In this document: piece after piece, positions 42,186-59,624 of the stretch
How positions within the stretch are numbered: position 1 is the stretch's first letter
Layout: each line of letters begins with the position of its first letter
DNA from: a virus
Lineage: Duplodnaviria; Caudoviricetes
Length of the DNA: 64,000 nt
Strand: one strand, 5' to 3'
IMG/VR virus record: IMGVR_UViG_3300043427_002668
Made by a program: the position numbers and the translations under genes
The notes under the pieces: model-generated
The model's database searches: none
What the model was told of the DNA's origin: nothing
What the model saw: the letters and a program-made list of their open reading frames with translations, nothing else

Positions 42186-42764
42186 ATGTTTAATATTAAA
42201 TGTCGTGGTCTTTTCCCGACTGATTTGTACTTTGTTGATATTTACGATCAAAAAGAAAACGAAAGTTATAAACAAGAACTTTTAAAACTTTCAAAAGAAA
42301 GTCCTGGAGAAATTAAAAGTAATCGTAATGGATGGCAGAGTGATATTACACTTTGGCAGAATGAGACCTTTAAACCATTGTTAGAAAAGTCTTCTACAAT
42401 CGTTCAATCAATCATTGCAGACCTTTCTACCAACAAACCAGAGTTCGTCATTCGTGCAATGTGGGGAAATGTCAATCCTCAAGGTGGTTATAATTTCACA
42501 CACGTTCATCCCAGTGGTTGGATGAGTGCCGTTTATTATGTTGCACTTCCAGAAGGTGCTCCTGGTATTACCTTTGAAGATCCAAGACCTTCAAAGATTA
42601 TGGACTTTCAAGGTAGTTGTTTAAGAGATACAAACTATCATAATCACACTCCAAAGGTTGGAGAGTTGGTATTATTTCCTTCTTGGTTACCTCATTTTGT
42701 GAATCCAAATCCAATTAACGAAAATCGTATTTCAATCTCATTTAATGTAGAGTTACTTGTATGA
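42186..42764 (+). CDS. 2OG-Fe(II) oxygenase (TIGR02466-like)
   Basis: WGNVN, HVHP, SAVYYV, LFPSWLPHFV, RISISFN. Confidence 0.88.
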   Translation: MFNIKCRGLFPTDLYFVDIYDQKENESYKQELLKLSKESPGEIKSNRNGWQSDITLWQNETFKPLLEKSSTIVQSIIADLSTNKPEFVIRAMWGNVNPQGGYNFTHVHPSGWMSAVYYVALPEGAPGITFEDPRPSKIMDFQGSCLRDTNYHNHTPKVGELVLFPSWLPHFVNPNPINENRISISFNVELLV

Positions 42765-43423
42765 CTTCAGTATTAATCGCAATGCCCTGTTATGGGGGAA
42801 TGGTAAGTGATAAAACCGCAAAGGGATTATTCAATTTAGGAAAGGCACTGAATAAAAACGGAATCGATCACGGTCTTTTGACTATGGCAAATGAAAGTCT
42901 TGTTACGAAAGCAAGATCAAGAATTGCTAACTTCTATATGAATAATACCGAGTATGAGAAGATTTTGTTTATTGATGCTGATGTTGGATTTACACCAGAA
43001 GATGCCCTGAAGGTTATTCTTGCAGATAAGGATATTGTTTGTGGTGCATATCCAATGAAGGGTATTCCACTTCGTTACAATTATAATATCTCATCTCCTC
43101 CAGTTGCAGAAGAAGGATTAGTTCAGATTGAAAATATTGGATTTGGATTTTGTTGTATTAAACGGCAAGTATTTCGGGAAATTCAAAATCGTTATGGTGA
43201 AGAATTAAAGTATTATCCTGCACTAAATAATTCTAGTTATCCACCAACAGAACAGGAATATCATAACTCATATCATTACTTTCTTGAAATGAAAAAAGAT
43301 ATGTCTTTTCTACCTGAAGATTTTTCATTCTTTGAAAGAGCATCAAGTGTAGGATACAAATCTTGGTTAGATACAAGTATTCGTCTGTGTCATGTTGGTT
43401 CTCATGTTTATCAAGAAGAGTAA
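42761..43423 (+). CDS. GT-A-fold glycosyltransferase-like protein
   Basis: LIAMPCYGG, ESLVTKARS, FIDADVGF DxD motif, EDFSFF, LCHVG. Confidence 0.7.
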   Translation: MTSVLIAMPCYGGMVSDKTAKGLFNLGKALNKNGIDHGLLTMANESLVTKARSRIANFYMNNTEYEKILFIDADVGFTPEDALKVILADKDIVCGAYPMKGIPLRYNYNISSPPVAEEGLVQIENIGFGFCCIKRQVFREIQNRYGEELKYYPALNNSSYPPTEQEYHNSYHYFLEMKKDMSFLPEDFSFFERASSVGYKSWLDTSIRLCHVGSHVYQEE

Positions 43424-43428
43424 ATCAA

Positions 43429-46245
43429 ATGGCAGGAGTATTCGGTCTTAAAAAAGTCTATAAAAAACAGATCGAAAATACTGATCCTGGATTGCAACTG
43501 GATATTGAGGGTCTTTTTTATGGTTACTTTGGTGGTGGATATTTTATTCCTCCTACTCCTACTGCTAGTATATTTTATTCCACTATAGATCGTTTAGATT
43601 TCACGACAGAAACTGTAACATCATCGATCGATCTACCGGTAGCAAAATCATATGTAGCAGCAACCTCAAGTAGTTCTTATGGTTACTTTGGTGGCGGACT
43701 TACTTCACCATCAACAAGTGTTTGCACCATAGATCGTCTAGATTTCTCCTCAGAAACCCTATCAACACCAACACCTAAGTTATCTCAATCAAGAGGTTAT
43801 TTAGCAGCGACTTCAAGCAGTTCTTATGGTTACTTTGGTGGAGGTGCTGGATCCTCCACTGTAGATCGTTTAGATTTTGATACTGAAACGACAACACCAC
43901 TTCCAAATATATCTATTTCGCGAGGATATTTAGCAGCAACCTCAAGTAGTTCTTATGGTTACTTTGCTGGTGGAACTTCTCCAGGATTTGTTACGTATTA
44001 TTGTACTATTGATCGTTTAGATTTTTCCATAGATACATTTTCAGTTCCTCCCCAACAATTACCAACATCTACGGTTTATCCTGGGACAGTAAAAAATGAT
44101 CTTTATGGTTATTTTGGTGGTGGTGTTACTCCTCTTGGATATGTCTGTACTATAAATCGTTTAGATTTCTCCACAGAAACCCTATCAACACCAGCACCTA
44201 AGTTACCTCAAGCAAGATATGCTTTAGCAGGAACTTCGAGTAATTTTTTTGGATACTTTGGTGGTGGTTTTTATGCTCCTCTTGTTTTTGTTTGCACTAT
44301 TGACCGTCTAGATTTCTCTACAGAAACCGTATCAGTACCAGGACCTCAGTTATCTCAAAGAAGAGCGGCTTCAACAGCAGTCCAAGTCAACCGCAATCCA
44401 ATCTTCCAGTCATCTCCTAAGTTCACTAACTGGCCTGAGAGTGCTAATGTTGGTTACTTTGGTGGAGGAGCAACTCCTCCTGGAGTTATAGTATTAAGTA
44501 GTTTTAATCGATTAGATTTTTCTACAGAAACTGTGGCAACACCAGCACCTAAATTAACTGAAGCAAGATATCATTTGACATCATTGTCAAATAATCAGTA
44601 TGGTTATTTTGGTGGAGGAGCAACCTCACCTCTTCCTTCTCCTTTTATTCGTTCTACTACTGAACGATTAGATTTTTCTACAGAAAATACAATAAGACTC
44701 GGTAGTTCATTATCTATATCAAGAAGGTTTTTGAATTCAGTATCAAGTAGTTCTTATGGTTACTTTTGTGCTGGTATTACTTTACCTAGTCCTAATATTA
44801 GGGTTTCCACTATAGATCGATTAGATTTCTCTACAGAAACAATAACAACACCAACACCTAAGTTGGCTGGTGATAGAAGTGGATATAATACTGTATCAAC
44901 TAGTTCTTATGGTTACTTTGCTGGTGGTTCAATTTATGCTGTTCCATCGGATATTTATCAACTTGGTATAGATCGTTTAGATTTTTCTACAGAAACTGTG
45001 GCAACATTAGGATCTAATCTTTCTTCAATAAGAGCCGATTCCACAACTGTTTCAAATTCTTATTATGGTTATTTTGGTGGTGGAGGTAATTTTATTGGAC
45101 CAGGAGCACTATCTACTATAGAACGTTTTGATTTTTCTACCGAAACTGCAAATTTGTTAGGATCTAGGTTCACTACATCTAGAACCTCAACATCGGGAGC
45201 TTCAAGTAGTTCTTATGGTTATTTTGCTGGTGGTAATACTCCTCCCGATACTTCCAGTATAAATCGTTTAGATTTCTCAACGGAAACAATAGGAGATCTA
45301 ACATCTACATTATCTAGTTTTAGATATGGTGGAACTGGAGTATCAGGAGCAATAGGAACTCGTAGAGTTGGTTCTGCGACTTATGGTTATTATGGTGGTG
45401 GTGCTATTCCTACTGCTGTTTCTACCATAAACCGTTTAGATTTCTCTACAGAAACAGTAACAACACCATCTCCTAAGTTATCTCAAGCAAGACAACAATT
45501 AGCAGCAACCTCAAGTAGTTCTTATGGTTACTTTGGTGGTGGTGGTCTTACTCCCAGTTCCACTATAGATCGTTTAGATTTCTCTACAGAAACAGTATCA
45601 GTCCCAACACCTAAGTTATCTCAAACAAGACAACAATTAGCAGCAACCTCAAGTAGTTCTTATGGTTACTTTGGTGGTGGTGCTATTCCTACTGCTGTTT
45701 CTACTATAGATCGTTTAGATTTCTCAATAGAAACAGTATCAGTCCCAACACCTAAGTTATCTGATTTGAAAAGGGGAGTGGCAGCAACTGCAAGTAGTTC
45801 TTATGGTTACTTTGGTGGTGGTTATGCTTTTTTTCCAGGTCGTGTTTCTACTATAGATCGTTTAGATTTCTCCACAGAAACAGTATCAGTACCAACACCT
45901 AAGTTATCTCAAGCAAGAGAAAGTTTATCAGCAACCTCAAGTAGTTTTTATGGTTACTTTGGTGGTGGTGCTACTAGCCCAACTACTGTTGTTTGCACCA
46001 TTGATCGTTTAGATTTCTCCACAGAAACAGTATCAGTACCAACACCTAAGTTATCTCAAGCAAGAGAAAGTTTATCAGCAACCTCAAGCAGTTCTTATGG
46101 TTACTTTGGTGGTGGTTTTGCTCCTACTCCTGCCGTTTATTCAACAATTGATCGTTTAGATTTCTCCACAGAAACCGTATCAGTTCCATCACAAAAACTC
46201 ACTTCAGAAAGATCTGCTCCAGCTGCAGTCTCAAACGCAAACTAA
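43429..46245 (+). CDS. Kelch-like repeat protein A (18 repeats, three blocks of six)
   Basis: About 45-50 aa units SSSYGYFGGG-variable-TIDRLDFSTETVSVPTPKLSQAR; counted by hand. Confidence 0.85.
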   Translation: MAGVFGLKKVYKKQIENTDPGLQLDIEGLFYGYFGGGYFIPPTPTASIFYSTIDRLDFTTETVTSSIDLPVAKSYVAATSSSSYGYFGGGLTSPSTSVCTIDRLDFSSETLSTPTPKLSQSRGYLAATSSSSYGYFGGGAGSSTVDRLDFDTETTTPLPNISISRGYLAATSSSSYGYFAGGTSPGFVTYYCTIDRLDFSIDTFSVPPQQLPTSTVYPGTVKNDLYGYFGGGVTPLGYVCTINRLDFSTETLSTPAPKLPQARYALAGTSSNFFGYFGGGFYAPLVFVCTIDRLDFSTETVSVPGPQLSQRRAASTAVQVNRNPIFQSSPKFTNWPESANVGYFGGGATPPGVIVLSSFNRLDFSTETVATPAPKLTEARYHLTSLSNNQYGYFGGGATSPLPSPFIRSTTERLDFSTENTIRLGSSLSISRRFLNSVSSSSYGYFCAGITLPSPNIRVSTIDRLDFSTETITTPTPKLAGDRSGYNTVSTSSYGYFAGGSIYAVPSDIYQLGIDRLDFSTETVATLGSNLSSIRADSTTVSNSYYGYFGGGGNFIGPGALSTIERFDFSTETANLLGSRFTTSRTSTSGASSSSYGYFAGGNTPPDTSSINRLDFSTETIGDLTSTLSSFRYGGTGVSGAIGTRRVGSATYGYYGGGAIPTAVSTINRLDFSTETVTTPSPKLSQARQQLAATSSSSYGYFGGGGLTPSSTIDRLDFSTETVSVPTPKLSQTRQQLAATSSSSYGYFGGGAIPTAVSTIDRLDFSIETVSVPTPKLSDLKRGVAATASSSYGYFGGGYAFFPGRVSTIDRLDFSTETVSVPTPKLSQARESLSATSSSFYGYFGGGATSPTTVVCTIDRLDFSTETVSVPTPKLSQARESLSATSSSSYGYFGGGFAPTPAVYSTIDRLDFSTETVSVPSQKLTSERSAPAAVSNAN

Positions 46246-46270
46246 ATAACTTTAACTACATCATTTTGAT

Positions 46271-47947
46271 ATGAAGTCTGGAGCAACTGAAAGTTCTTTT
46301 TATTATCTTTCGCAATATTATACATTTCCTGAAAATGTAGATGTAAGAAGAACCACACACGAAATCATACAATCAGATAAGCAATATAAGGTCATCTGGG
46401 CACACGATAATTGCGACCAAGCAGGACACCGAGACCTTCCACAGCACATAGACAAGATTGATAAAATTGTCTGTGTATCAAACTGGGAACGAGAGCAATA
46501 CATCAAGTATAACCGAGCACCCGCAGAGAAACTGACGGTCATTCCAAATGGTGTGGATGATATGTTCCGACCATCAGGAAAACCAAAATCAAAAACCTGT
46601 ATCTTTTTCTCCGCACCACATAAGGGTATCACACCATTAGTACCCATCTGGAAAGAAGTCATCAAACATCATCCAGATGCAAAACTCAAAGTGTTTTCTT
46701 CAATGTCTCTGTATGGTGCAATTCAACCAGGAGAAGGAGAAAATGAGACTATCACAACTGATAAGGGACTAGAACCTTCACCATTCATTCCTATCTACAA
46801 GGAACTTCAAGCACTTCCAGGTGTGGAGTATTCACCTTGTATTGACCGTGAAGAACTACTACTTCATATTCAAGATGCTGCTTTTTATATTCATTCAAAT
46901 GTGTGGGAAGAAACCTTCTGTGTTTCTCTTGCAGAAGCAATGAGTTGCGGATGCTTTCCTATCACTACAGATATGGGAGCACTTCCAGAAACATCAAACG
47001 GAATGGGTAAGTATATTCCAATGTCAGGGCAAAATACTCCCAGAGGTTGGATTACTGATGACACATTCCACCAGAACTTTGCAGAAGAAATCATAAGAGC
47101 ACTTCATTTCTTTGATGTTGCTAGAGATGAATACGAACAAGCATCCTCAGCAATCTCAAAGTTTGCAATAGAAACTTATAATTGGAGAAGAGTTGCAAAG
47201 TTATGGGAAAATGAAATCAATAGTCTGACTCAAAAGATAGACCTCTTTGAAGGAAGAATGAAGACCTTAGAGGAATATTATGAGTGGTCTTCAAGTATCA
47301 ATATGGTTCCAGCACAACACATTGACTATCTTTACAGACTAAAGTATCATCATAATTTTGAACCAAAAGTGGTTTATGACATTGGTTCGGCAGTTCTTCA
47401 TTGGTCTAAGTTTGCTTCTTGTGTGTGGAATGAAGCAGAGTTCTATCATATTGATGGATTTGATGGATATCATTCGTTATACCAAAAGAATAGAATAAAC
47501 TATGCAATTGAAGTTCTAAGTGATAGGGAAAAAGAAGTTACTTTCTATGAGAATGTTAAGGATAGTGGAAGTTCCTCATATTATGAAATGAATTTCCAAG
47601 AGTTTCCACACAATCTAGCATTTAAGACCAGTCCTTTTTACAGAGAAAGAACAGTTAGAACAAAAACTTTAGATGCAGTAGTTGCAGAAAGAAATTGGAA
47701 ACTTCCGGATTTAATTAAAATGGATATTCAAGGATGCGAATTGGATGTTCTCAAAGGAGCAGAAAGAACTCTTGAATATTGTAATCATCTGATATTAGAA
47801 TTGCAAAATAAGCAGTATATGAAAGATGCCCCTCTTAATCAAGAGGTTATTCAATACTTAGAGAATAAAGGATATATTCTTATTTCACACTTCGTACAAA
47901 ATCCAAGTTGTGCTGACGGAGATTACCACTTCTTTAGATCGAAATAA
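46271..47947 (+). CDS. GT4-like glycosyltransferase fused to FkbM-family methyltransferase
   Basis: WAHD, VIPNGVD, EETFCVSLAEAMSCG (GT-B E-x7-E); YDIGS, LIKMDIQGCELDVLKG. Confidence 0.85.
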   Translation: MKSGATESSFYYLSQYYTFPENVDVRRTTHEIIQSDKQYKVIWAHDNCDQAGHRDLPQHIDKIDKIVCVSNWEREQYIKYNRAPAEKLTVIPNGVDDMFRPSGKPKSKTCIFFSAPHKGITPLVPIWKEVIKHHPDAKLKVFSSMSLYGAIQPGEGENETITTDKGLEPSPFIPIYKELQALPGVEYSPCIDREELLLHIQDAAFYIHSNVWEETFCVSLAEAMSCGCFPITTDMGALPETSNGMGKYIPMSGQNTPRGWITDDTFHQNFAEEIIRALHFFDVARDEYEQASSAISKFAIETYNWRRVAKLWENEINSLTQKIDLFEGRMKTLEEYYEWSSSINMVPAQHIDYLYRLKYHHNFEPKVVYDIGSAVLHWSKFASCVWNEAEFYHIDGFDGYHSLYQKNRINYAIEVLSDREKEVTFYENVKDSGSSSYYEMNFQEFPHNLAFKTSPFYRERTVRTKTLDAVVAERNWKLPDLIKMDIQGCELDVLKGAERTLEYCNHLILELQNKQYMKDAPLNQEVIQYLENKGYILISHFVQNPSCADGDYHFFRSK

Positions 47948-47952
47948 TTTTT

Positions 47953-50415: not shown

Positions 50416-50449
50416 AAAGAAATGAACTGAATTGTTTAAAGAGGATTCT

Positions 50450-51310
50450 ATGTCTGAAGCTTATAAGGATATTGCACTTGCTAAAGCAGATGATGTTTTA
50501 GATGATAGCAATGAATTTATGTTTAAGGTTTATAATGAATGCATGAAGTGGGAGGAGAGTGAGAAAGAACTTGCTGGTAGTCGTTCCAATTTTCAGATTG
50601 AAAAATTCATTATTCACGACAACTTTACTCTTCCTTCGGCATTTAAAGCAGCAATTATCAACCGTAAGAGTGTTGCAGAAGGACTTCTTCAAGGCATTCA
50701 AGAAGCAAAAAGAATTGCTAGAGAATTTCATTTTAAGTGGGATGGAAAAGATAAATCTCAACCAATTTGGTGGAAGAATGGTAGAGGTGGAGAAGACCTT
50801 TGTTGGTATGATATTGATGAGTTCAATTTCCATCGTCTCATTCACGGACTTAATCAAGGTTTCCAAGCAGCAGTTGATGAACTTGAGTTCTTTGATAAGT
50901 TGATTTCAAGACTAATTGAATTAAATGGTGGAAAACTAGTAAGTAAAGAACAATATGATGAAGATCAACCAAACTATTGGGAAAGAAGACTTGCGAATCA
51001 GTCTCTGGATGATTTACTTGCTGCAAAGACTGGTGTAAATGCTGGTAATATTCGTTCTATGAGAAGAGCAAGTGCTCCTACCGTTCTTCCTGATGATGTC
51101 AATAGAACGAAGGGAACATTTGGGGATCCTACGAATCCTATGTCATTCCTGAATGCACTTCAAGATCATGTTGCAAAAGGTATTGAAGAAATTAGTGGAA
51201 TGTATAATGTTCTTGAAGGAAAACAGCAAGAAGAACAGAAGATTTTAGATCCAGCAACAGGAACTGAGGGAGTTTCATTATTCAACGAACAACTCAAACA
51301 GGAAGCATAA
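50450..51310 (+). CDS. Helical hypothetical protein
   Basis: GAGGA RBS; 286 aa; SRSNFQIEKFI, YWERRLANQ. Confidence 0.8.
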   Translation: MSEAYKDIALAKADDVLDDSNEFMFKVYNECMKWEESEKELAGSRSNFQIEKFIIHDNFTLPSAFKAAIINRKSVAEGLLQGIQEAKRIAREFHFKWDGKDKSQPIWWKNGRGGEDLCWYDIDEFNFHRLIHGLNQGFQAAVDELEFFDKLISRLIELNGGKLVSKEQYDEDQPNYWERRLANQSLDDLLAAKTGVNAGNIRSMRRASAPTVLPDDVNRTKGTFGDPTNPMSFLNALQDHVAKGIEEISGMYNVLEGKQQEEQKILDPATGTEGVSLFNEQLKQEA

Positions 51311-51316
51311 AAACAA

Positions 51317-54124
51317 ATGCCTGGAGACATATTCGGTCTAGATCGTGTTTACGACAAACAAGTTGAAAACATAGCATCAGGAATAGAAGTTACTTCTGTT
51401 TATGCTTCTCTTTATGGTTACTTTGGTGGGGGTGCTATTCCTGGTACTCCGAATATTAATGTATGTACCATAGATCGTTTAGATTTCTCTACAGAAACCG
51501 TAACAACCCCAACACCTAAGTTATCCCGGGCAAGAAATAGTTTTGGAACAGTTTCAAATAGTTCTTATGGTTATTTTGGGGGTGGTGGACTTGATGATGT
51601 TCCTCCATTAACTTTATTTTCTACTATTGATCGTTTAGATTTCTCTACAGAGACCGTACAAATACCAGTTATATCTGCCAAATTATCTGCAGAAAAAATT
51701 GCTTTGATAGCATCTTCGAATAGTTCTTATGGTTACTTTGGTGGTGGTTTTAATAGCACTTATCTTTCCACTATAGACCGTTTAGATTTCTCTACGGAAA
51801 CAGTAACAACACCAACACCTAAGTTATCTCAAGCAAGAAGTCGTTTAGCATCAGTTTCAGATAATTCTTATTCATACTTTATTGGTGGTTGGGATGGAAC
51901 TAATAATTTTTCTACTATAGATCGTTTGGATTTTTACACGGAAACAAGATCAGTACCATCATCTAAATTATCTACAGGAAGAAATAGTATAGATGGAACT
52001 TCAAGTAGGTCTTATGGTTATATTGCAGGAGGTCTTACTGCCCCCACTACTCGTGTTTCTACCATTGATCGTTTAGAGTTCTCTACAGAAACAATATCAG
52101 TACCAACACCTAAGTTATCTGGAGCAAGAAATGCCTTAGCAGCAACCTCAAGTAGTTCTTATGGTTACTTTGGTGGTGGTCTTACTTCCCCTACTACTTT
52201 TATTTCAACCATTGATCGTTTGGATTTTTATACAGAAACAGTAACAACTCCAACACCTAAGTTATCTACGGTAAGAACTGCTTCATCAGCAGTTCAAATC
52301 AACCGACAAAGAAAAATAAAAAATTCTCCAATATACACCAACTGGCCTGAAAGTGCTAATACTGGTTACTTTGGTGGTGGTTCTGCTCCCTCTGTTATTT
52401 CTACTTTTAATCGTTTAGATTTCTCCACAGAAACAGTATCAACACCAACACCTAAGTTATCTCAAGCAAAAACAACTTTATCTGCAACTTCTAGCAGTTC
52501 TTATGGTTATTTTGGTGGTGGTTATATTTCAGCTCCAACTCAAGTTACAACTATTGATCGTTTAGATTTCTCCACAGAAACCGTATCAGTACCAACACCA
52601 AAGTTATCTTCAGCAAGATATTTCTTAGCAGCAGCATCAAGCAGTTCTTATGGTTACTTTGCTGGTGGAACTCCGTCTACTATTTCTACCATAAACCGTT
52701 TAGATTTCTCTACAGAAACAGTATCAACACCAACACCTAAGTTATCTCAAGCAAGATTTGGTTTAGCAGCAGTATCAAGCAGTTCTTATGGTTACTTTGG
52801 TGGTGGATATTTACCTCCTGCTACTTTGGTTTGTACTATAGATCGTCTAGATTTCTCCACAGAAACAGTATCAGTACCAACACCTAATTTATCTCAAGCA
52901 AGAAGATATATTGGTGCAATTTCTAATAGTTCTTATGGTTATTTTGCTAGTGGAAATAATCCCAATACTACATCTATCATAGATCGTTTAGATTTCTCTA
53001 CAGAAACAGTATCAGTACCAACACCTAAGTTATCTCAAGCAAAAACTAATTTAGCAGCAGTCTCAAGTAGTTCTTATGGTTACTTTGGTGGTGGTGCTAT
53101 TACTGGTCCTAGTATTCTTTCTACCATAGACCGTCTAGATTTCTCTACAGAAACCGTATCAACACCAACACCTCAATTATCTCAAGCAAATCAAGGTTTA
53201 GCAGCAGTATCCGGAGGAACCGGAACTCAAAGAGTTGGTACTGCGACTTATGGTTATTGGGGTGGAGGAGGTCCCACAACAGTATCCACAATAGATCGTT
53301 TAGATTTCTCCACAGAAACCGTATCAGTACCAACACCTAAGTTATCTCAAGCAAGAGATGGTTTAGCAGCAACCTCAAGCAGTTCTTATGGTTACTTTGG
53401 TGGTGGTACTTCTGCTTCTGTTAATTTATGTGCCATAGATCGTTTAGATTTCTCTACAGAAACAGTAACAACACCAACACCTAAATTATCTCAAGCAAGA
53501 ACTAGTTTAACAGCAACCTCAAGTAGTTCTTATGGATATTTTGGTGGTGGGTTTACTACTATTAGTGTTTGTACTATAGATCGTTTAGATTTTTCTACAG
53601 AAACGGTTTCAGCACCAGGAATCTATCAGTTATCGACAGCAAAAAATCAATTAGAAGCAGTCTCAAGTAATTCTTATGGTTATTTTGGTGGTGGTTACAT
53701 TCCTACTCCCTCTACTCGTTATTCCACTATAGACCGGTTAGATTTCACTACAGAAACCATAACAGTTCCAACATCTAAGTTATCTTCAGTAAGAAGAGGG
53801 TTAACAGCAACCTCAAGTAGTTCTTATGGATACTTTGGTGGTGGTAGTACTATTCCTAATCCTACTGTCGTTTCCACCATAGATCGTTTAGATTTCTCTA
53901 CAGAAACAGTATCAACACCAACACCTAAGTTATCTCTAGCAAAGGAGAGACTAACAGCAACATCAAGTAGTTCTTATGGTTACTTTGGTGGTGGTCTTAC
54001 TCCTCCTGCTACTCGTTATTCCACCATAGATCGTTTAGATTTCTCTACAGAAACAGTATCAGTACCATTACAAAAACTCACACAAGAAAAACAATCTTTA
54101 GCAGCAGTCTCAAACGCAAACTAA
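51317..54124 (+). CDS. Kelch-like repeat protein B (18 repeats)
   Basis: Same repeat, same linkers (NWPESAN, TQRVGTAT) and AVSNAN end as protein A. Confidence 0.85.
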   Translation: MPGDIFGLDRVYDKQVENIASGIEVTSVYASLYGYFGGGAIPGTPNINVCTIDRLDFSTETVTTPTPKLSRARNSFGTVSNSSYGYFGGGGLDDVPPLTLFSTIDRLDFSTETVQIPVISAKLSAEKIALIASSNSSYGYFGGGFNSTYLSTIDRLDFSTETVTTPTPKLSQARSRLASVSDNSYSYFIGGWDGTNNFSTIDRLDFYTETRSVPSSKLSTGRNSIDGTSSRSYGYIAGGLTAPTTRVSTIDRLEFSTETISVPTPKLSGARNALAATSSSSYGYFGGGLTSPTTFISTIDRLDFYTETVTTPTPKLSTVRTASSAVQINRQRKIKNSPIYTNWPESANTGYFGGGSAPSVISTFNRLDFSTETVSTPTPKLSQAKTTLSATSSSSYGYFGGGYISAPTQVTTIDRLDFSTETVSVPTPKLSSARYFLAAASSSSYGYFAGGTPSTISTINRLDFSTETVSTPTPKLSQARFGLAAVSSSSYGYFGGGYLPPATLVCTIDRLDFSTETVSVPTPNLSQARRYIGAISNSSYGYFASGNNPNTTSIIDRLDFSTETVSVPTPKLSQAKTNLAAVSSSSYGYFGGGAITGPSILSTIDRLDFSTETVSTPTPQLSQANQGLAAVSGGTGTQRVGTATYGYWGGGGPTTVSTIDRLDFSTETVSVPTPKLSQARDGLAATSSSSYGYFGGGTSASVNLCAIDRLDFSTETVTTPTPKLSQARTSLTATSSSSYGYFGGGFTTISVCTIDRLDFSTETVSAPGIYQLSTAKNQLEAVSSNSYGYFGGGYIPTPSTRYSTIDRLDFTTETITVPTSKLSSVRRGLTATSSSSYGYFGGGSTIPNPTVVSTIDRLDFSTETVSTPTPKLSLAKERLTATSSSSYGYFGGGLTPPATRYSTIDRLDFSTETVSVPLQKLTQEKQSLAAVSNAN

Positions 54125-54144
54125 ATACATCAAAACTCTATATT

Positions 54145-54972
54145 ATGAAAACCTTTCACTTTATGTCAGGTCTTCCAAGATCTGGTTCGACACTTCTGAC
54201 TGCACTTCTGAATCAAAATCCACAGATCCACGCATCTACAAACTCTCCTCTTTTAGATACGATACATTATACTGAGGAGTATTTGTTATATAACTCAGAG
54301 CAATATAAGGCACACCCAAAACCAGAAGCAGCACATAAGGTTTTATCATCAATACCTCATAACTATTACTTTGATACACCAGAACCGATTATTATTGATA
54401 AATCAAGAGGTTGGGTGAATCAGATTCAACACATTCAAGATTATATTACTCCAGAACCAAAGATCATCTGCCCTGTAAGAAACATTCGGGACATTATGAG
54501 TTCTTTTCTTGCACTGATCGAACGCAGTAAGACTTTATCTTTTATTGATAACGCACTGATAGAAAGAAACTTAGAACTCACGAATGATAATCGATGTGAT
54601 TTTCTAATGTCTCCTCAAGGTATTATCGGTCAATCTTATCACGCACTTTCAGAAGCATTTCGTAAAGGTCATCAGAAATATTTGTTGTTTGTTGAGTATG
54701 AAAACTTAGTCAGTAATCCACAAAAAGAACTCAATCGTATTCATTCGTTTCTGGGAATACCTGAGTATTCTTATGATTTCTCAAATGTTCGACCAAAGTT
54801 TGACGAAAATGATGTCGTTTATGGTCTTGAGAATATGCATACTGTGAGAAATAAGGTACAAAAGATACATCGTGATAACTCAAAGTATCTTAGTAAGTAT
54901 ATAACAGATAAATATAAAGAAATGGAGTTCTGGCATAAAACAACTCCGAAGTATTCTATATTTGGAATCTAA
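54145..54972 (+). CDS. Sulfotransferase (P-loop, PAPS-binding)
   Basis: SGLPRSGSTLL 5'-PSB motif, IIDKSR, PVRNIRDIMSS 3'-PB motif, VEYENLV. Confidence 0.88.
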   Translation: MKTFHFMSGLPRSGSTLLTALLNQNPQIHASTNSPLLDTIHYTEEYLLYNSEQYKAHPKPEAAHKVLSSIPHNYYFDTPEPIIIDKSRGWVNQIQHIQDYITPEPKIICPVRNIRDIMSSFLALIERSKTLSFIDNALIERNLELTNDNRCDFLMSPQGIIGQSYHALSEAFRKGHQKYLLFVEYENLVSNPQKELNRIHSFLGIPEYSYDFSNVRPKFDENDVVYGLENMHTVRNKVQKIHRDNSKYLSKYITDKYKEMEFWHKTTPKYSIFGI

Positions 54973-57770
54973 TGGCTGGGATATTTTCACTTAGAGAAGT
55001 TAGAACAGAACAACTAACAAATGTTAATGAAGGACTAACACTAGATATTCCTGGTCTTCTTTATGGTTATTTTGGTGGGGGTGATATTGCTACTAGTGAT
55101 TTTATTTCTACTATTGATCGTTTAGACTTCTCTACAGAAACCGTAAGTACTCCAACCCCTAAGTTATCTCAAGGAAGATTTGGTTTAGCAGCAGTATCAA
55201 ATAGTTCTTATGGTTATTTTTGTGGAGGAGAACGTCAAGTTGGAACTCCCCCTACGGTATCTTACTCAACTATAGATCGCCTAGATTTTTCTACAGAAAC
55301 AGTATCAGTACCAACATCTAAGTTATCTCAATCAAAACCTGGTTTGGCAGCAGTCTCAAGTAGTTCTTATGGTTATTTTGGTGGTGGTGATATTAGTGTT
55401 ACTCCAACCACATCATTGGTTTGTACTATAGATCGTTTAGATTTTTCCGCAGAAACCGTATCAACGCCTGGATCCTATCAGTTATCTCAGGCAAGATTTA
55501 GTTTAGGGGCAGTCTCAAGTAGTTCTTATGGTTACTTTGGTGGTGGTATTAATTCTCCTGGTATTCGTGTTTGTACTATAGATCGTTTAGATTTCTCTAC
55601 AGAAACAGTATCAGTACCAACCCCAAAATTATCTCAAGCAAGAGGTACTTTAGAAGCAACATCAAGTAATTCTTATGGTTACTTTGGTGGTGGTTTTGAT
55701 GGTACTATTAGAGTTTGCACCATTGATCGTCTAGATTTTTCCACAGAAACCGTCACAACACCAACACCTAAGTTATCTCAAGCAAGATCTGGTTTAGCAG
55801 CAGTCTCAAGTAGTTCTTATGGTTACTTTGGTGGTGGTACTACTGCTCCTACTTATGTCTGTACGATAGATCGTTTAGATTTCTCGACAGAAACAGTATC
55901 AGTTCCATCACCAAAATTGTCTCAAGCAAAAGATCAATCAACAGGAGTCCAAGTCAATCGTCAGCAAATCTTCAGAGGTTCTCCTAAGTTTACTAACTGG
56001 CCTGAGAGTGCTAATGTTGGTTATTTTGGTGGTGGTGATATTCCAGCTGGACCTAATCCAGTTACTACATTTGATCGTTTAGATTTATCCACAGAAACAA
56101 TAACTACACCACAAACTAAAATATCCCCAGCAAGATATAGTTTGGATGTAACATCAAGCAGTTCTTATGGATACTTTGCCGGTGGTGCTAGTTCTCCTAG
56201 TGTTTTTTATTGCACCATAGATCGTTTAGATTTTTCATCAGAAACAATATTATATCCAACATCTAAGTTATCTAAAGCAGCAATTGTAAATGCAGTTTCA
56301 AGTGATTTTTATGGATATTATGCAGGTGGGGGACCAGAAACTGGAGCTACTTTTTCTAATATTAACCGTCTAGATTTCTCTACAGAAACCGTAACGACAC
56401 CGACATCTTATTTAAGTTCCGCAAAAAATAAGTTTGCATCAGCTTCAAATGCTTTTTATGGATACTTTGGTGGTGGTGTTTCCCCCACTACTCTTTTTTC
56501 TACCATCGACCGTTTAGATTTTTCAACAGAAATAGTATCAACACTAACCTCTAGGTTATCTCAAGTAAAAAATAGTTTAGGAGCAGTTTCAAGTAGTTCT
56601 TATGGATATTTTGGTGGTGGTTATACTCCCACTCCTGTTTCCACCATAGACCGTTTAGATTTTACTACAGAAACAGTAACTACAACATCAACTAAGTTAT
56701 CTTCAATAAGAGTTAAATCCAAAGGAGCAGTTTCAAGTAATTCTTATGGTTACTTTGGTGGAGGAAGAACACCTGGATTCACCTCCACCATAGACCGTTT
56801 AGATTTTTCTACAGAAACAGTATCAACACCAGGACCTAAATTATCTCAAGCAAGATCTGAAATAGGAGCAGTATCAGGAGCAAGAGGGACTCAAAGAGTT
56901 GGTTCTGCCACTTATGGTTATTGGGGTGGTGGTGGTACTCCTACTGATGTTTGTACTATAAACCGTTTAGATTTCTCTACCGAAACAGTATCAGTACCAG
57001 GACCTAAGTTATCTCAGGCAAGAACTGGTCTTAAAGCATTTTCAAGCACTCTTTATGGTTATTTTGGTGGAGGATTTACTCTAAGTAATATTTCTACAAT
57101 CGATCGTTTAGATTTTATTACAGAAACAGTGTCAGTACCAACACCTAAATTATCTATAGCAAGAAATAACATATCAGCAACATCAAGTAGTTCTTATGGT
57201 TATTTTGGTGGTGGTAGTACTCCTACTCTTGTTTCTACAATCGATCGTTTAGATTTTATTACAGAAACAGTGTCAGTACCAACACCTAAATTATCTAAGG
57301 TAAGAAATGGTTTAGTAGCAACTTCAAGTAGTTCTTTTGGATACTTTGCTGGTGGGGCTACTCCTATTATTGATTGTACCATAGACCGTTTAGATTTTTC
57401 TACAGAAACAGTAACACCTGTATCAAGTACATTATCTGCAGCAAAAAGAAATTTAGCGGGGACATCAAGTAATTCTTATGGTTACTTTGGTGGTGGACTA
57501 CTAGCGCCAGCAACAATAAATGCTTCCACTATTGACCGTTTAGATTTCTCTACAGAAACCGTAAGTACTCCAACACCTAAGTTATCTCAAGAAAAAAGTA
57601 GTTTAGTAGCAACATCAAGTAGTTCTTATGGTTATTTTGGTGGTGGTAGTACTCCTACTCTTGTTTCTACAATCGATCGTTTAGATTTCTTTACAGAAAC
57701 AGTATCAGTCCCATCACAAAAACTTACTCAAGCAAGAGATCAATTAGCAGCAGTCTCAAACGCAAACTAA
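54972..57770 (+). CDS. Kelch-like repeat protein C (18 repeats)
   Basis: Same architecture as A and B. Confidence 0.85.
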   Translation: MAGIFSLREVRTEQLTNVNEGLTLDIPGLLYGYFGGGDIATSDFISTIDRLDFSTETVSTPTPKLSQGRFGLAAVSNSSYGYFCGGERQVGTPPTVSYSTIDRLDFSTETVSVPTSKLSQSKPGLAAVSSSSYGYFGGGDISVTPTTSLVCTIDRLDFSAETVSTPGSYQLSQARFSLGAVSSSSYGYFGGGINSPGIRVCTIDRLDFSTETVSVPTPKLSQARGTLEATSSNSYGYFGGGFDGTIRVCTIDRLDFSTETVTTPTPKLSQARSGLAAVSSSSYGYFGGGTTAPTYVCTIDRLDFSTETVSVPSPKLSQAKDQSTGVQVNRQQIFRGSPKFTNWPESANVGYFGGGDIPAGPNPVTTFDRLDLSTETITTPQTKISPARYSLDVTSSSSYGYFAGGASSPSVFYCTIDRLDFSSETILYPTSKLSKAAIVNAVSSDFYGYYAGGGPETGATFSNINRLDFSTETVTTPTSYLSSAKNKFASASNAFYGYFGGGVSPTTLFSTIDRLDFSTEIVSTLTSRLSQVKNSLGAVSSSSYGYFGGGYTPTPVSTIDRLDFTTETVTTTSTKLSSIRVKSKGAVSSNSYGYFGGGRTPGFTSTIDRLDFSTETVSTPGPKLSQARSEIGAVSGARGTQRVGSATYGYWGGGGTPTDVCTINRLDFSTETVSVPGPKLSQARTGLKAFSSTLYGYFGGGFTLSNISTIDRLDFITETVSVPTPKLSIARNNISATSSSSYGYFGGGSTPTLVSTIDRLDFITETVSVPTPKLSKVRNGLVATSSSSFGYFAGGATPIIDCTIDRLDFSTETVTPVSSTLSAAKRNLAGTSSNSYGYFGGGLLAPATINASTIDRLDFSTETVSTPTPKLSQEKSSLVATSSSSYGYFGGGSTPTLVSTIDRLDFFTETVSVPSQKLTQARDQLAAVSNAN

Positions 57771-57795
57771 ATAAGGTAACTATATCATTATTGAT

Positions 57796-58455
57796 ATGAA
57801 TGATTTATTATCCAATATTTTAATTCAACCAAAAGTAGTCACAAAGGAAAACTGTAAATATCTGCTTGATTTTGCTAATCAAGCAGATATGGAACAGATG
57901 GGAGTATTTGATCCTGATAAAACAAATCTTACAAAAAAATCAGAACATAAAGTAGATAAGACATCTAGAGATGTAAAGTGTGCTGATATAACTCCTATTC
58001 TTCCTCAAGTTCATGATTTGATGAAGAATATCATCGATCATGTTATTAATCCTTTTTATAATTTTAAGATTCGTGATAGTGAAATGCCTCAACTTCTTTA
58101 CTATGAAAAAGGAGGGCACTATAAACCTCATTATGATGCAGAAGCACTTTGGACGAATCCTGATGGAACAACAATGTGGAAGAAGAGTGTAGATCGGGAT
58201 CTTTCTACGGTTCTTTTTCTCAACGATGATTTTGAGGGTGGTTATTTTTCTTTTCCAGATCTAAGAATCAAAATCAAACCAGAACCAGGACTTCTTGTTT
58301 GTTTTCCTTCTTCTAGATGGTTTAAGCACTGCGTAGAACCTGTACTTTCAGGTAAGAGATATACTTTAGTAACTTGGATGAGAGTTCAAGGGTTTAAAAC
58401 AAAAGAAGAGCAAGATAAAGAAATAGAACAGAAGTATGGAATTAAGGTTCCATAA
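57796..58455 (+). CDS. Prolyl-4-hydroxylase-like 2OG-Fe(II) oxygenase
   Basis: YKPHYD, LSTVLFLNDDFEGG, FPS..WFKHCVEPVLSGKRY. Confidence 0.88.
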   Translation: MNDLLSNILIQPKVVTKENCKYLLDFANQADMEQMGVFDPDKTNLTKKSEHKVDKTSRDVKCADITPILPQVHDLMKNIIDHVINPFYNFKIRDSEMPQLLYYEKGGHYKPHYDAEALWTNPDGTTMWKKSVDRDLSTVLFLNDDFEGGYFSFPDLRIKIKPEPGLLVCFPSSRWFKHCVEPVLSGKRYTLVTWMRVQGFKTKEEQDKEIEQKYGIKVP

Positions 58456-58483
58456 ATATCAAGAAAGTATCTCAAAATAAGAA

Positions 58484-59029
58484 ATGACTCAACTTATAAA
58501 ACATTATTTGGTCGATAGAGATAATCCAGAAGTTTTTGCAACAACAGCAGAACAATTCTCAAGACCAATGTTCGGTACAATTGGTCCAAATATTGAAGGT
58601 CTTGAAGTAGTTCATGCATTAAGTGATGTAAATGGTATTACATTCTTTCTTTCCAACTGTCCTGATACTACTACGATTAATGAAGTAGAGGGTCTTGCAA
58701 TCCTTACGCAACAACAATGGGATGATGAAATCGCAGCATATGATACAAGACAAGGAACAAAACGTTTAAATCTTGTTCGTAAGTACAGAGATCAACTTCT
58801 TTCTCAAACTGATTGGATTGTAATCAAAGCAAAAGAGCAAGGAACTAATCTTACAACTGCATTTAAGGATTGGAGACAATCTCTTCGTGATCTTCCTGCA
58901 GCACCAACCTTTCCAACTGAACTTCCTGCACCTCCAGCAAATGTATCAATAGATCAAGCAATTTATGATGCTTATGTTGCAGATATTAGAACTGTTCCAA
59001 TGATTAATGATCCACTTCCTCCAGTATAA
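58484..59029 (+). CDS. Tail fibre assembly chaperone-like protein
   Basis: VRKYRDQLLSQTDW...WRQSLRDLP motif. Confidence 0.75.
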   Translation: MTQLIKHYLVDRDNPEVFATTAEQFSRPMFGTIGPNIEGLEVVHALSDVNGITFFLSNCPDTTTINEVEGLAILTQQQWDDEIAAYDTRQGTKRLNLVRKYRDQLLSQTDWIVIKAKEQGTNLTTAFKDWRQSLRDLPAAPTFPTELPAPPANVSIDQAIYDAYVADIRTVPMINDPLPPV

Positions 59030-59033
59030 TAAT

Positions 59034-59624
59034 TCAATAAGGTTTAGTCATATTTAATAAATGATAACACTTATCGTTACGGTCAAATGCGTAATCCACG
59101 TATTGACCGTTTTTTCTTACAAAGTGTAGGAATAATTGCATAAAACGATCATTATCGTGAGTTCTTAGAGGACTTCTCCAGTGCTCTACTTGAGTTCCAA
59201 GATACGCAACTCCATGTCCTACAGGTGTTACAACTGCTCTATTCTTACCTTCTAAATCTTTGAGTTTAATCGGCCAAGCAGCATCACCGCAAATATTCAT
59301 TGTGACTGAGACTTCACAGGAAGGTCGGTCAGTATGACAGTTCATCCAACCACCTTTATGGTAAGTCGTAGAGAACCAATAAGTCGGCAGAAGTTCTTCA
59401 CCAAGCAACTCCTCAAGTATTGGTTTGACTCTCCACATAATATAAGTACAGGTTGGTGGAGCATAACAAGTTAACACTCTTCCTCTTTCTGGATCGTGAT
59501 GTCCTTTAAGACTTCCAAGTTCTCTTACTGCACCACAGAGGTTTTTATATTTAATCTCCAATGCTTCTTCTTTGCTGATAATATTGGGAAGATAGTACCA
59601 CCCCTTTTTAGCAAACGTACTCAT
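59034..59624 (-). CDS. 2OG-Fe(II) oxygenase-like protein
   Basis: HTDRPSCEVSVT, WPI, VEHWR, QLFLHFV; divergent late-promoter-like motifs at 59644-59651 (-) and 59656-59663 (+). Confidence 0.8.
   Translation of the reverse strand: MSTFAKKGWYYLPNIISKEEALEIKYKNLCGAVRELGSLKGHHDPERGRVLTCYAPPTCTYIMWRVKPILEELLGEELLPTYWFSTTYHKGGWMNCHTDRPSCEVSVTMNICGDAAWPIKLKDLEGKNRAVVTPVGHGVAYLGTQVEHWRSPLRTHDNDRFMQLFLHFVRKNGQYVDYAFDRNDKCYHLLNMTKPY

What the first reader, a model, noticed from the sequence alone, without database searches (positions are those of the whole stretch)
42186..59624. Candidate virion glyco-decoration system: propeller scaffolds interleaved with their modifying enzymes
Within 17.4 kb, three Ser/Thr/Pro-rich repeat proteins alternate with at least four glycosyltransferase domains (GT-A, GT4-like, GT17-like, second GT-A), two FkbM methyltransferase domains, a sulfotransferase and three 2OG-Fe(II) oxygenases. 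The block is flanked by fibre genes and carries late-promoter motifs. Each scaffold gene is followed directly by an enzyme gene. The inference is a hydroxylate-glycosylate-methylate-sulfate pathway that coats fibres or capsid, analogous to giant-virus fibril glycans, for camouflage, adhesion or host range. Modifying the host surface for superinfection exclusion is an alternative.
Basis: partly seen in the sequence, partly recalled or inferred. Interest (0 to 1): 0.85.

Follow-up and report, generated by a model that had tools for sequence, protein, structure and literature searches.

The report
Phage fibre propellers with tailoring enzymes
Inside its tail-fibre genes, an uncultured marine cyanophage encodes three giant Kelch-propeller proteins interleaved with enzymes that add sugars, methyl, sulfate and hydroxyl groups; about a hundred related viral contigs carry the same cassette, so these phages probably decorate their own host-binding parts, but this has not been shown experimentally.

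Summary
Window 42186-59624 lies in the tail-fibre module of an S-SKS1-like T4-type cyanophage (an IMG/VR contig). It encodes three paralogous Kelch proteins, each with 18 blades (3 x 6). A two-propeller model has pLDDT 89 and matches Keap1/KLHL Kelch domains.

Pfam confirms GT4-FkbM, GT17-x-FkbM, a PAPS sulfotransferase and two 2OG oxygenases, one of them similar to prolyl 4-hydroxylases. Support for the first GT-A is weak. The "second GT-A" and the "third 2OG oxygenase" are unproven.

The cassette is conserved in about 100 viral contigs with 11 architectures, and in a Kyanoviridae virus whose Kelch proteins are only 26% identical. The Kelch genes, the u292-family gene and the P4H-like oxygenase form a core. 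The GT-A/GT4 pair and the sulfotransferase are accessory. u292 is fused to the GT4 domain in distant relatives. S-SRM01 has an analogous cassette built on RCC1 propellers, and earlier follow-ups in this scan described RCC1 versions on other DNA.

All the enzymes are soluble, and late-promoter-like motifs precede the transcription units. The best reading (about 0.45) is that the enzymes tailor virion-borne, hypervariable Kelch binding heads in the cytoplasm. Nothing here shows modification or virion location directly. The tests for pairing, loop composition and complex formation gave no support.

The parts
41226..42158 (+). 310-aa fibre-type structural protein ('u310'); upstream boundary gene of the cassette
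   Evidence: Lies directly upstream of the cassette in all 41 complete cassettes, by the way these were selected. In relatives it is the C-terminal part of fibre proteins of 2000-2500 aa. No Pfam or PHROG hit.
42186..42764 (+). 2OG-Fe(II) oxygenase, PF13759 / TIGR02466 type
   Evidence: Pfam 1.6e-25, NCBIfam TIGR02466 1.6e-35. Present in 7 of 11 cassette architectures.
42761..43423 (+). Probable GT-A-fold glycosyltransferase (phrog_1574), coupled to Kelch A (5-nt gap)
   Evidence: DxD motif (IDADV). PDB match to the STIV A197 GT-A, 2c0n, E 0.003. Atlas neighbours carry Anp1/GT2. Always co-occurs with the GT4 gene, 8 of 8 architectures.
43429..46245 (+). Kelch A: 938 aa, 3 x 6-bladed Kelch propellers
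   Evidence: The ATG at 43429 gives the N-terminal motif conserved across the family; the TTG ORF start at 43363 is unlikely.
46271..47947 (+). GT4 glycosyltransferase fused to an FkbM methyltransferase
   Evidence: PF00534, PF13439 and PF05050 above cut-off; TIGR01444. In relatives the GT4 domain is fused to a GT2-like domain or to u292, or stands alone.
47953..50415 (+). GT17-like domain + unassigned middle domain (GT-A-like motifs) + FkbM methyltransferase
   Evidence: PF04724 1.3e-21 and PF05050 9.6e-13. Middle domain: only Glyco_tranf_2_3 at E 0.12, and no PDB hit.
50450..51310 (+). 'u292': uncharacterised conserved protein, coupled to Kelch B (6-nt gap)
   Evidence: Present in all 11 architectures. 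Fused to the C-terminus of the GT4 domain in L113, L114, AG-345-L05 and P0187/P0264/P0266. No Pfam or PDB match.
51317..54124 (+). Kelch B: 935 aa, 3 x 6-bladed Kelch propellers
   Evidence: PF24681 at 94.7 bits. AF2 model of residues 322-935 with pLDDT 89. Foldseek match to Keap1/KLHL.
54145..54972 (+). PAPS-type sulfotransferase, overlapping the Kelch C start by 1 nt
   Evidence: PF13469 1e-19 and PF00685 1.2e-16. N-terminal PRSGST loop. Nearest solved relatives are TPST1/2, weakly. A NoeE-like motif.
54972..57770 (+). Kelch C: 932 aa, 3 x 6-bladed Kelch propellers
57796..58455 (+). Prolyl-4-hydroxylase-like 2OG-Fe(II) oxygenase
   Evidence: PF13640 3.6e-16. Nearest PDB entries are bacterial, collagen and PBCV-1 prolyl hydroxylases. 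H112, D114, H178 and R188 are invariant. Follows the last Kelch gene in 69 of 70 loci.
58484..59029 (+). Tail-fibre assembly chaperone-like protein
   Evidence: PF16778 1.2e-11 and phrog_4912. Present in 51 of 70 loci.
59034..59624 (-). phrog_2954 protein (labelled 'ferrochelatase' in cyanophage records); possibly a divergent 2OG oxygenase
   Evidence: Present in 60 of 70 loci. Invariant H97-x-D99...H148. No Pfam hit; hhalign against the P4H-like family is negative.

Best explanation
This is a conserved, virus-only 'propeller plus tailoring-enzyme' cassette inside the tail-fibre module of S-SKS1-like and some Kyanoviridae cyanophages.

The three paralogous Kelch proteins each consist of a conserved N-terminal peptide followed by three six-bladed propellers. 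Every blade carries one hypervariable Pro/Thr-rich loop on the face that Kelch domains use to bind ligands. They are most likely virion-borne, fibre-associated binding heads that help set host recognition.

The interleaved enzymes are soluble and sit in late-type transcription units, each of which ends with a Kelch gene. They most likely modify these propellers, or the neighbouring fibres, in the cytoplasm before assembly:
- A core step by the P4H-like oxygenase and the u292-family protein.
- Accessory O-glycosylation by the GT-A/GT4 pair.
- Extension of the glycan (GT17, GT2-like) and tailoring by FkbM O-methyltransferases and a PAPS sulfotransferase.

Swapping these accessory modules between phages would change the surface chemistry of the heads.

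Shown here: the folds, the enzyme families, the conserved synteny, the GT4-u292 fusion, and the variability pattern. Inferred: virion location, the Kelch proteins as substrates, and the order and chemistry of the steps.
For: 1. Conserved synteny. Seventy Kelch-centred loci carry the P4H-like gene (69), u292 (61), phrog_2954 (60), sulfotransferase (46) and GT4 (42), with contig ends cutting off many loci. There are 41 complete cassettes in 11 architectures.
2. Reverse test. All 32 sulfotransferase loci at 73% identity or more lie in the cassette.
3. Persistence across deep divergence:
- L113 and L114, with Kelch 30-36% identical.
- Kyanoviridae virus AG-345-L05, with Kelch 26%, sulfotransferase 39%, GT-A 49%, GT4 40% and P4H-like 43% identical.
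4. Analogous cassette. S-SRM01 combines three RCC1 propellers with a 2OG_Oxy_5, a sulfotransferase, a GT2-methyltransferase fusion and an epimerase, next to fibre genes.
5. Fusion link. u292, which is always directly upstream of a Kelch gene, is fused to the GT4 domain in several lineages.
6. Coupling and promoters.
- Each Kelch gene is coupled to its upstream enzyme gene.
- 68 of 95 distinct Kelch gene ends carry TAAATA at the stop codon, against 0.9% of random 18-nt windows.
7. No enzyme has a membrane segment, and the cassette has no flippase, polymerase or priming GT.
8. Solved-structure neighbours. The nearest solved relatives of the core oxygenase are peptidyl-prolyl hydroxylases. The best solved match of the GT-A is the GT of STIV, a virus with a glycosylated capsid protein (the glycosylation is from memory).
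9. Separate glycan cluster. The phage has a classical LPS-type nucleotide-sugar/GT cluster elsewhere, at G000 78-91 kb. The fibre-embedded set is therefore a separate module, and sugar donors could be phage-supplied.
10. Phage precedents. Kelch-fold proteins annotated as virion structural proteins exist in jumbo phages. CBB_552 was detected in virions by mass spectrometry (PMC5259590).
Against: - There is no direct evidence of virion location or of any modification.
- GTs and the sulfotransferase are dispensable. L019-type cassettes have three Kelch genes with no GT and no sulfotransferase.
- The Kelch tree clusters by genome (68 changes against 93 in shuffles) much more than by neighbouring enzyme (41 against 48.9; 46 against 52). 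No cognate enzyme-Kelch lineages are visible.
- The Thr/Ser/Pro content of the variable loops does not track the presence of GTs.
- Distant sulfotransferase relatives sit with APS kinase, GT4 and FkbM genes and no propeller.
- Much of the Ser/Thr/Pro richness belongs to the Kelch blade consensus itself. The TPTPK motif is confined to the window's sublineage.
Confidence: 0.45

Rival explanations
1. The Kelch proteins are receptor-binding heads, but the enzymes act on host envelope glycans. One version is masking of the glycan receptor late in infection, for superinfection exclusion or so that progeny do not stick to debris. Genetic linkage would then reflect matching of the binding head to its receptor-masking enzyme.
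For: - The usual reading of cyanophage GT clusters is host cell-surface modification (PMC12801897).
- Modular enzyme-Kelch units that swap order would suit matched pairs.
- The enzyme families (GT4, GT17, FkbM, NoeE-like sulfotransferase, and a carbamoyltransferase in AG-345-L05) are typical glycan-tailoring enzymes.
- Related sulfotransferases cluster with APS kinase, GT and FkbM genes without propellers.
Against: - The genes lie in the fibre module behind late-type motifs, in a lytic T4-type phage.
- The enzymes have no membrane segments, and there is no flippase, polymerase or priming GT.
- The phage already carries a separate LPS-type cluster elsewhere.
- The universal partners, the P4H-like oxygenase and u292, are not glycan-building enzymes of any known type.
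Confidence: 0.2
2. The enzymes tailor other virion proteins of the module, such as the collagen-like fibre, the u310-type giant fibres or other tail fibres. The Kelch proteins are unmodified neighbours.
For: - Collagen-like and other fibre genes flank the cassette in many loci.
- P4H-type enzymes classically act on collagen-like proteins.
- The triplets of the collagen-like fibre are rich in Thr (GTQ).
Against: - The collagen-like fibre has G-[TLRS]-Q triplets and essentially no Pro, so it offers no substrate for a prolyl hydroxylase.
- The enzymes are interleaved with, and coupled to, the Kelch genes rather than the fibre genes.
- The RCC1 analogue again places the enzymes among propeller genes.
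Confidence: 0.15
3. There is no functional link. The region is a hypervariable island where fast-evolving repeat genes and mobile accessory enzyme genes accumulate.
For: - Accessory content varies between relatives.
- No cognate pairing appears in the tree.
- 2OG oxygenases and phrog_2954 proteins are widespread in cyanomyoviruses without Kelch genes.
Against: - The association persists from 90% down to 26% Kelch identity and across two virus groups.
- Enzyme homologues at high identity occur only in the cassette.
- There is a GT4-u292 fusion, and u292 is always next to a Kelch gene.
- An independent RCC1 analogue exists.
Confidence: 0.1

Closest known systems
Mycobacteriophage virion glycosylation (Freeman et al. 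2023, Cell Host Microbe; cited as ref 61 in PMC12801897; details from memory)
   Same: Phage-encoded soluble glycosyltransferases sit next to structural genes and modify virion proteins in the cytoplasm.
   Different: There the acceptors are C-terminal extensions of capsid and tail-tube proteins. There are one or two GTs and no propellers, methyltransferase fusions, sulfotransferase or hydroxylase. In that system modification is demonstrated; here it is not.
Giant-virus glycosylation clusters: Mimivirus fibril cluster with R135, and PBCV-1 A064R (PMC9614988)
   Same: - The scaffold protein is encoded inside a clade-specific cluster of GTs and methyltransferases.
- Some clades also carry sulfate-metabolism genes.
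- A064R is a GT-GT-methyltransferase fusion, like the GT-FkbM fusions here.
- PBCV-1 also has a viral prolyl 4-hydroxylase (PDB 5c5t).
   Different: Those are eukaryotic viruses with different scaffold folds and no sequence relationship beyond the enzyme superfamilies. In them the glycans have been characterised chemically.
RCC1-propeller cassettes in phage fibre modules: S-SRM01 gp335-gp349, and earlier follow-ups of this scan
   Same: Several beta-propeller paralogues are interleaved with a sulfotransferase (33% identical), a 2OG_Oxy_5 oxygenase and a GT-methyltransferase fusion, next to fibre genes.
   Different: The propellers are seven-bladed RCC1, not six-bladed Kelch. The GT and MT families differ (GT2/Methyltransf_24, and GT9 in the scan notes). 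There is no u292 and no shared N-terminal peptide. I found no paper describing these cassettes.
Cytoplasmic glycosylation of bacterial adhesins: serine-rich repeat proteins with GtfA/GtfB, and TibC/TibA or Aah/AIDA-I (from memory)
   Same: Dedicated soluble GTs are encoded beside a repetitive surface adhesin and modify it before export.
   Different: The GT families and accessory parts differ (GT4 with DUF1975 plus accessory Sec; GT9 heptosyltransferases). Those acceptors are linear repeats or beta-helices, not propellers.
Cyanophage LPS / cell-wall modification gene clusters (P-SSM2, S-SCSM1, S-SCSM2R; PMC12801897)
   Same: GT-rich clusters in large cyanomyoviruses. The window's own genome has one at G000 78-91 kb.
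   Different: Those clusters lie outside the fibre module, include nucleotide-sugar synthesis genes, and are thought to act on the host envelope. The cassette here has none of these genes and is interleaved with propeller genes.

Membership tests
Kelch-repeat beta-propeller superfamily | Repeats of 44-56 aa with a GG doublet and conserved aromatic and Arg positions | tested here: met
   54 blades of about 48 aa with the consensus YGYFGGG...DRLDF...R. PF24681 scores 94.7 and 80.4 bits against a cut-off of 50.
Kelch-repeat beta-propeller superfamily | Four-stranded blades closing into a six-bladed propeller | tested here: met
   AF2 model with pLDDT 89. Foldseek TM 0.89-0.94 and rmsd 1.7-2.3 A to KLHL3, Keap1 and designed six-blade Kelch proteins.
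Virus-encoded virion glycosylation system | Glycosyltransferase genes embedded among virion structural genes | tested here: met
   GT4, GT17 and a GT-A-like gene lie between tail-fibre genes.
Virus-encoded virion glycosylation system | Glycans shown on virion proteins | not testable with these tools
   Needs glycoproteomics of S-SKS1 virions. No proteomic paper was found.
Peptidyl-prolyl 4-hydroxylase (2OG-Fe(II) oxygenase, PF13640) | HxD...H iron triad and a basic 2OG-binding residue | tested here: met
   H112, D114, H178 and R188 are invariant in 10 homologues. Pfam score 60.4 bits against a cut-off of 27.
Peptidyl-prolyl 4-hydroxylase (2OG-Fe(II) oxygenase, PF13640) | Hydroxylates proline in a protein substrate | not testable with these tools
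   Only weak sequence similarity to solved P4Hs (E about 1e-5). PKHD/PiuC-type hydroxylases score similarly.
PAPS-dependent sulfotransferase | Sulfotransferase fold with an N-terminal 5'-phosphosulfate-binding loop | tested here: met
   PF13469 72 bits and PF00685 61 bits, both above cut-off. A PRSGST loop at residues 11-16.
Protein-tyrosine sulfotransferase (TPST / RaxST type) | Specific similarity to TPSTs, and accessible acidic Tyr sites in the substrate | tested here: inconclusive
   TPST1/2 are the only PDB hits, but at E 8e-4 to 4e-3. The Kelch tyrosines lie in the conserved YGYFGGG blade motif. Relatives cluster with glycan enzymes and APS kinase.
FkbM-family methyltransferase | PF05050 / TIGR01444 domain | tested here: met
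   Both fusion proteins are above cut-off.
GT-A glycosyltransferase (42761-43423, and the middle domain of 47953-50415) | Rossmann-like GT-A fold with a DxD motif | tested here: inconclusive
   DxD motifs are present. The first protein matches the A197 GT-A at E 0.003. The middle domain has only Pfam E 0.12 and no PDB hit.
O-antigen / LPS assembly or modification locus | Membrane-bound priming GT, flippase, polymerase or Gtr-type membrane proteins | tested here: not met
   No segment in any cassette protein reaches a 19-residue Kyte-Doolittle mean of 1.6. No such Pfam families were found.

The most novel reading that the evidence does not exclude
Marine cyanophages write part of their host-recognition specificity as post-translational chemistry. 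Multi-propeller Kelch (or RCC1) heads on the tail would carry hydroxyproline and methylated, sulfated O-glycans installed by cassette enzymes, including a new enzyme or adaptor family (u292). Phages would re-code adsorption or evade decoys by swapping enzyme modules rather than by mutating the binding protein alone.
Probability: 0.3. Interest if true: 0.85.

Novelty: new variant of a known kind. Interest (0 to 1): 0.7.

Why it matters
- If the enzymes really decorate tail-borne propellers, this would be the first case of glycosylated, methylated or sulfated receptor-binding parts in cyanophages. Virion glycosylation would then extend from mycobacteriophages and giant viruses to an abundant group of ocean phages.
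- It would add a chemical layer to host-range determination, one that sequence-based host prediction cannot see.
- It would assign roles to several 'auxiliary metabolic' genes that are routinely read as host-surface or 2OG-metabolism genes: the 2OG oxygenases, the 'ferrochelatase-like' proteins and the GTs.
- It also flags an uncharacterised protein family (u292, about 150 clusters) that is genetically fused to a glycosyltransferase.
- A cultured member, S-SKS1 on Synechococcus WH7803, makes the idea directly testable.

Tried and rejected
- **Full-length Kelch B fold.** AF2 on the whole protein with a 10-sequence alignment failed (pLDDT 35). It was replaced by a two-propeller model built on 58 sequences.
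- **Complex prediction.** Complex prediction of u292 with its downstream two-propeller Kelch (the L019 pair) scored 0.00. This gives no verdict and is not evidence either way.
- **Cognate-pair test.**
  - The Kelch tree shows only weak clustering by upstream or downstream enzyme and strong clustering by genome.
  - Paralogues are therefore homogenised and no pairing can be read from the tree.
- **Loop composition.** The Thr/Ser/Pro content of the loops does not co-vary with GT presence.
- **TPTPK as a P4H target.**
  - I considered it because it resembles the PAPK repeats of PBCV-1.
  - I rejected it because the stretch is the canonical Kelch strand-4 / 4-1 loop, and TPTPK is confined to the window's sublineage. 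The wider family has SxPGxNL.
- **P4H acting on the collagen-like fibre.** Rejected: its triplets are G-x-Q without Pro.
- **Third 2OG oxygenase.** The profile comparison with the P4H-like family was negative.
- **Middle domain of the 820-aa protein.** No PDB or Pfam support.
- **u292.** No Pfam, PDB or informative Atlas neighbour.
- **RNA evidence.** No RNA sequencing run was listed for the region.
- **Cellular homologues of the Kelch family.** The only hit was one 2.6-kb contig in a MAG.
- **Literature.**
  - No paper on S-SKS1 or S-SRM01 treats these genes or reports virion proteomics.
  - The Freeman 2023 paper is not held in the library.
Full report
**Context.** The window is the minus strand of a 115-kb IMG/VR viral contig, estimated 58% complete. 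The only cultured relative found at DNA level is Synechococcus phage S-SKS1 (Llyrvirus), at about 71% identity over 14% of the query. The finding lies inside the tail-fibre module.
- Upstream: a 2020-aa tail fibre, a fibre with a Peptidase_S74 chaperone domain, and a 310-aa fibre-type protein.
- Downstream: two fibre-assembly proteins, a collagen-like fibre and another fibre.

**Gene content.**
| Coordinates | Product |
|---|---|
| 42186-42764 | 2OG-FeII_Oxy_5 / TIGR02466 oxygenase |
| 42761-43423 | phrog_1574 protein |
| 43429-46245 | Kelch A |
| 46271-47947 | GT4 + FkbM |
| 47953-50415 | GT17 + unassigned middle domain + FkbM |
| 50450-51310 | conserved unknown protein ('u292') |
| 51317-54124 | Kelch B |
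| 54145-54972 | sulfotransferase |
| 54972-57770 | Kelch C |
| 57796-58455 | 2OG-FeII_Oxy_3 oxygenase |
| 58484-59029 | fibre-assembly chaperone-like protein |
| 59034-59624 (minus) | phrog_2954 protein |

- The first 'GT-A' has a DxD motif, a weak match to the GT-A glycosyltransferase A197 of STIV (E 0.003) and GT-A-like Atlas neighbours.
- The 'second GT-A' rests on motifs only.
- The 'third 2OG oxygenase' has an invariant HxD...H, but no Pfam hit and a negative profile comparison with the P4H-like family.

**The repeat proteins.**
- Each has a conserved N-terminal peptide of about 30 residues followed by 18 blades of about 48 residues. Two linkers split the blades into 6+6+6.
- The blade consensus maps onto the classical Kelch motif. 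Much of the Ser/Thr/Pro richness is therefore structural.
- Full-length folding failed.
- Residues 322-935 of Kelch B, folded with a 58-sequence alignment, gave two confident propellers (pLDDT 89). Each superposes on Keap1/KLHL Kelch domains at TM about 0.9.
- The loop between strands 2 and 3 varies in length (3-13 residues in the window) and in sequence. Column identity there is 0.33, against 0.81 for the blade anchor.
- In the window that loop is rich in Pro (15%) and Thr (19%) and has no Lys.
- From established knowledge of Kelch domains, the 2-3 and 4-1 loops form the ligand-binding face.
- Between the window and its closest complete relative (L080), the enzymes are 73-95% identical while the Kelch proteins are only 57-61% identical. 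The first Kelch gene there has two propellers instead of three.
- This pattern fits a fast-evolving binding protein.
- The family has over 880 metagenomic members with two to five propellers. It is essentially absent from 185,579 prokaryote species genomes.
- Kelch-fold proteins are annotated as virion components in jumbo phages. One was detected in virions by mass spectrometry in phage CBB (PMC5259590).

**Co-occurrence.**
- A Kelch-centred scan returned 70 viral loci. They carry the P4H-like gene (69), u292 (61), phrog_2954 (60), the chaperone (51), the sulfotransferase (46), GT4 (42) and the GT-A-like gene (26). Many loci are cut by contig ends.
- The reverse scan with the sulfotransferase found that all 32 loci at 73% identity or more lie in the cassette.
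- Among 41 complete cassettes there are 11 architectures:
  - All 11 have u292; ending at the P4H-like gene was a selection criterion for 'complete'. Ten have three Kelch genes.
  - The GT-A-like and GT4 genes are either both present (8) or both absent (3).
  - The sulfotransferase is present in 8 architectures, including two with no GT.
  - One architecture (L019) has neither GT nor sulfotransferase.
- Units change order between phages.
- The association persists in distant lineages:
  - L113 and L114, with Kelch 30-36% identical.
  - The Kyanoviridae single-cell virus AG-345-L05, with Kelch 26% identical. That virus also has a second sulfotransferase and a carbamoyltransferase.
- In these distant lineages, and in several metagenomic clusters, u292 is fused to the C-terminus of the GT4 domain. 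Elsewhere the GT4 domain is fused to FkbM or to a GT2-like domain, or stands alone.
- The freshwater Kyanoviridae phage S-SRM01 has an analogous cassette built on true RCC1 propellers. It includes a homologous sulfotransferase, a 2OG_Oxy_5 oxygenase, a GT2-methyltransferase fusion and an epimerase, next to fibre genes.
- Earlier follow-ups in this scan described RCC1 versions on other DNA. I checked only the S-SRM01 instance myself.

**Expression signals and localisation.**
- Each Kelch gene is tightly coupled to the gene upstream of it: GT-A-like to A (5 nt), u292 to B (6 nt), sulfotransferase to C (1-nt overlap).
- Each Kelch stop codon is part of a CTAAATA motif 20-25 nt before the next gene.
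- TAAATA lies within 45 nt upstream of 13 plus-strand genes, against 1.5 expected. These include recognised structural genes.
- 68 of 95 distinct Kelch gene ends in related loci carry the motif, against 0.9% of random windows.
- The motif resembles the T4-type late promoter core (from memory). Promoter activity itself is not shown.
- No cassette protein has a membrane-spanning segment.

**Enzyme leads.**
- The core oxygenase has an invariant H-x-D...H...R. Its nearest solved relatives are prolyl hydroxylases, including the PBCV-1 enzyme, at weak E-values.
- The sulfotransferase matches only TPST1/2 among solved structures, weakly. Its distant viral relatives sit beside APS kinase, GT4 and FkbM genes, which favours a glycan substrate.
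- Outside the window, the same genome has a classical LPS-type cluster. It contains:
  - GDP-mannose dehydratase and two epimerase/reductases;
  - a DegT aminotransferase;
  - a sugar dehydrogenase;
  - two GT11 enzymes, one GT25 and a methyltransferase;
  - an OprB/SLH porin.
- The fibre-embedded enzymes are therefore a separate module, and the phage could supply the sugar donors itself.

**Interpretation.** The conserved but modular linkage, the GT4-u292 fusion, the soluble enzymes, the late-type units ending in Kelch genes and the RCC1 analogue together argue that the enzymes and the propellers work together. The most economical mechanism is cytoplasmic tailoring of virion-borne propeller heads (confidence about 0.45). 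The rivals are:
- modification of host glycans that the heads recognise (0.2);
- tailoring of other fibres (0.15);
- mere co-location (0.1).

Tests that could have tightened the link gave nothing:
- no cognate pairing in the Kelch tree, which clusters by genome;
- no covariation of loop composition with GT content;
- no verdict from complex prediction;
- no RNA data.

**Novelty.** I found no paper describing this cassette. The closest described systems are mycobacteriophage virion glycosylation and the giant-virus glycosylation clusters (PMC9614988). I class it as a new variant of virus-encoded virion tailoring, unproven at the biochemical level. The cultured phage S-SKS1 makes it directly testable.

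Noticed in passing
G000:C1:74000-92000 (locus L121), outside the window: The same phage genome has a classical LPS-type cluster: GDP-mannose 4,6-dehydratase, two epimerase/reductases, a DegT aminotransferase, a UDP-Glc/GDP-Man dehydrogenase, a SAM methyltransferase, two GT11 enzymes, GT25 and a GT7C-like protein. It also has a 524-aa OprB-family porin with an SLH domain, an NAD synthase and a peroxiredoxin. A phage-encoded cyanobacterial-type porin is unusual.
   Followed up: partly
window 50450-51310; L113:21912-23663; L114:7730-9475; L122:15521-17359: The uncharacterised u292 family (about 152 clusters at 50% identity, no Pfam or PDB match, invariant SMRRASAP and YWERR motifs) is a separate gene here. 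In distant relatives it is fused to the C-terminus of the GT4 domain.
   Followed up: yes
window 60015-62255: The collagen-like tail fibre has hundreds of G-[TLRS]-Q triplets and essentially no proline. This is an unusual collagen-repeat composition.
   Followed up: partly
L114:19289-21223: A 644-aa protein with an Mtd_N domain (N-terminal domain of the major tropism determinant, the target protein of diversity-generating retroelements) lies a few kb downstream of the cassette in a 204-kb relative.
   Followed up: no
L122:23500-25185 (Marine virus AG-345-L05): A NodU/CmcH-type carbamoyltransferase and a second sulfotransferase follow the cassette in this Kyanoviridae virus. Together with the FkbM and NoeE-like enzymes, this recalls the set of enzymes that decorate Nod factors.
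   Followed up: no
L001 (S-SKS1, NC_020851.1, both record ends): In the S-SKS1 record the cassette wraps around the ends of the linear record. The Kelch genes and the P4H-like gene are annotated as fragments, with gaps left unannotated. This suggests frameshifts or collapsed repeats in the assembly.
   Followed up: partly
L115 (CAZXGO010000276.1): The only 'prokaryote' hit to the Kelch family is a 2.6-kb contig binned into a Chitinophagales MAG. It is probably a mis-binned viral fragment.
   Followed up: no
window 31880-32515: A gene for a Mom-like DNA-modification protein (phrog_1384, 1.1e-29) sits just upstream of the 2020-aa tail-fibre gene.
   Followed up: no
window 43400-57800: The blade units are repeated at DNA level (47 copies of a 93-nt unit at 60-89% identity), and paralogues cluster by genome in the family tree. 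Both are consistent with concerted evolution among the three genes.
   Followed up: partly
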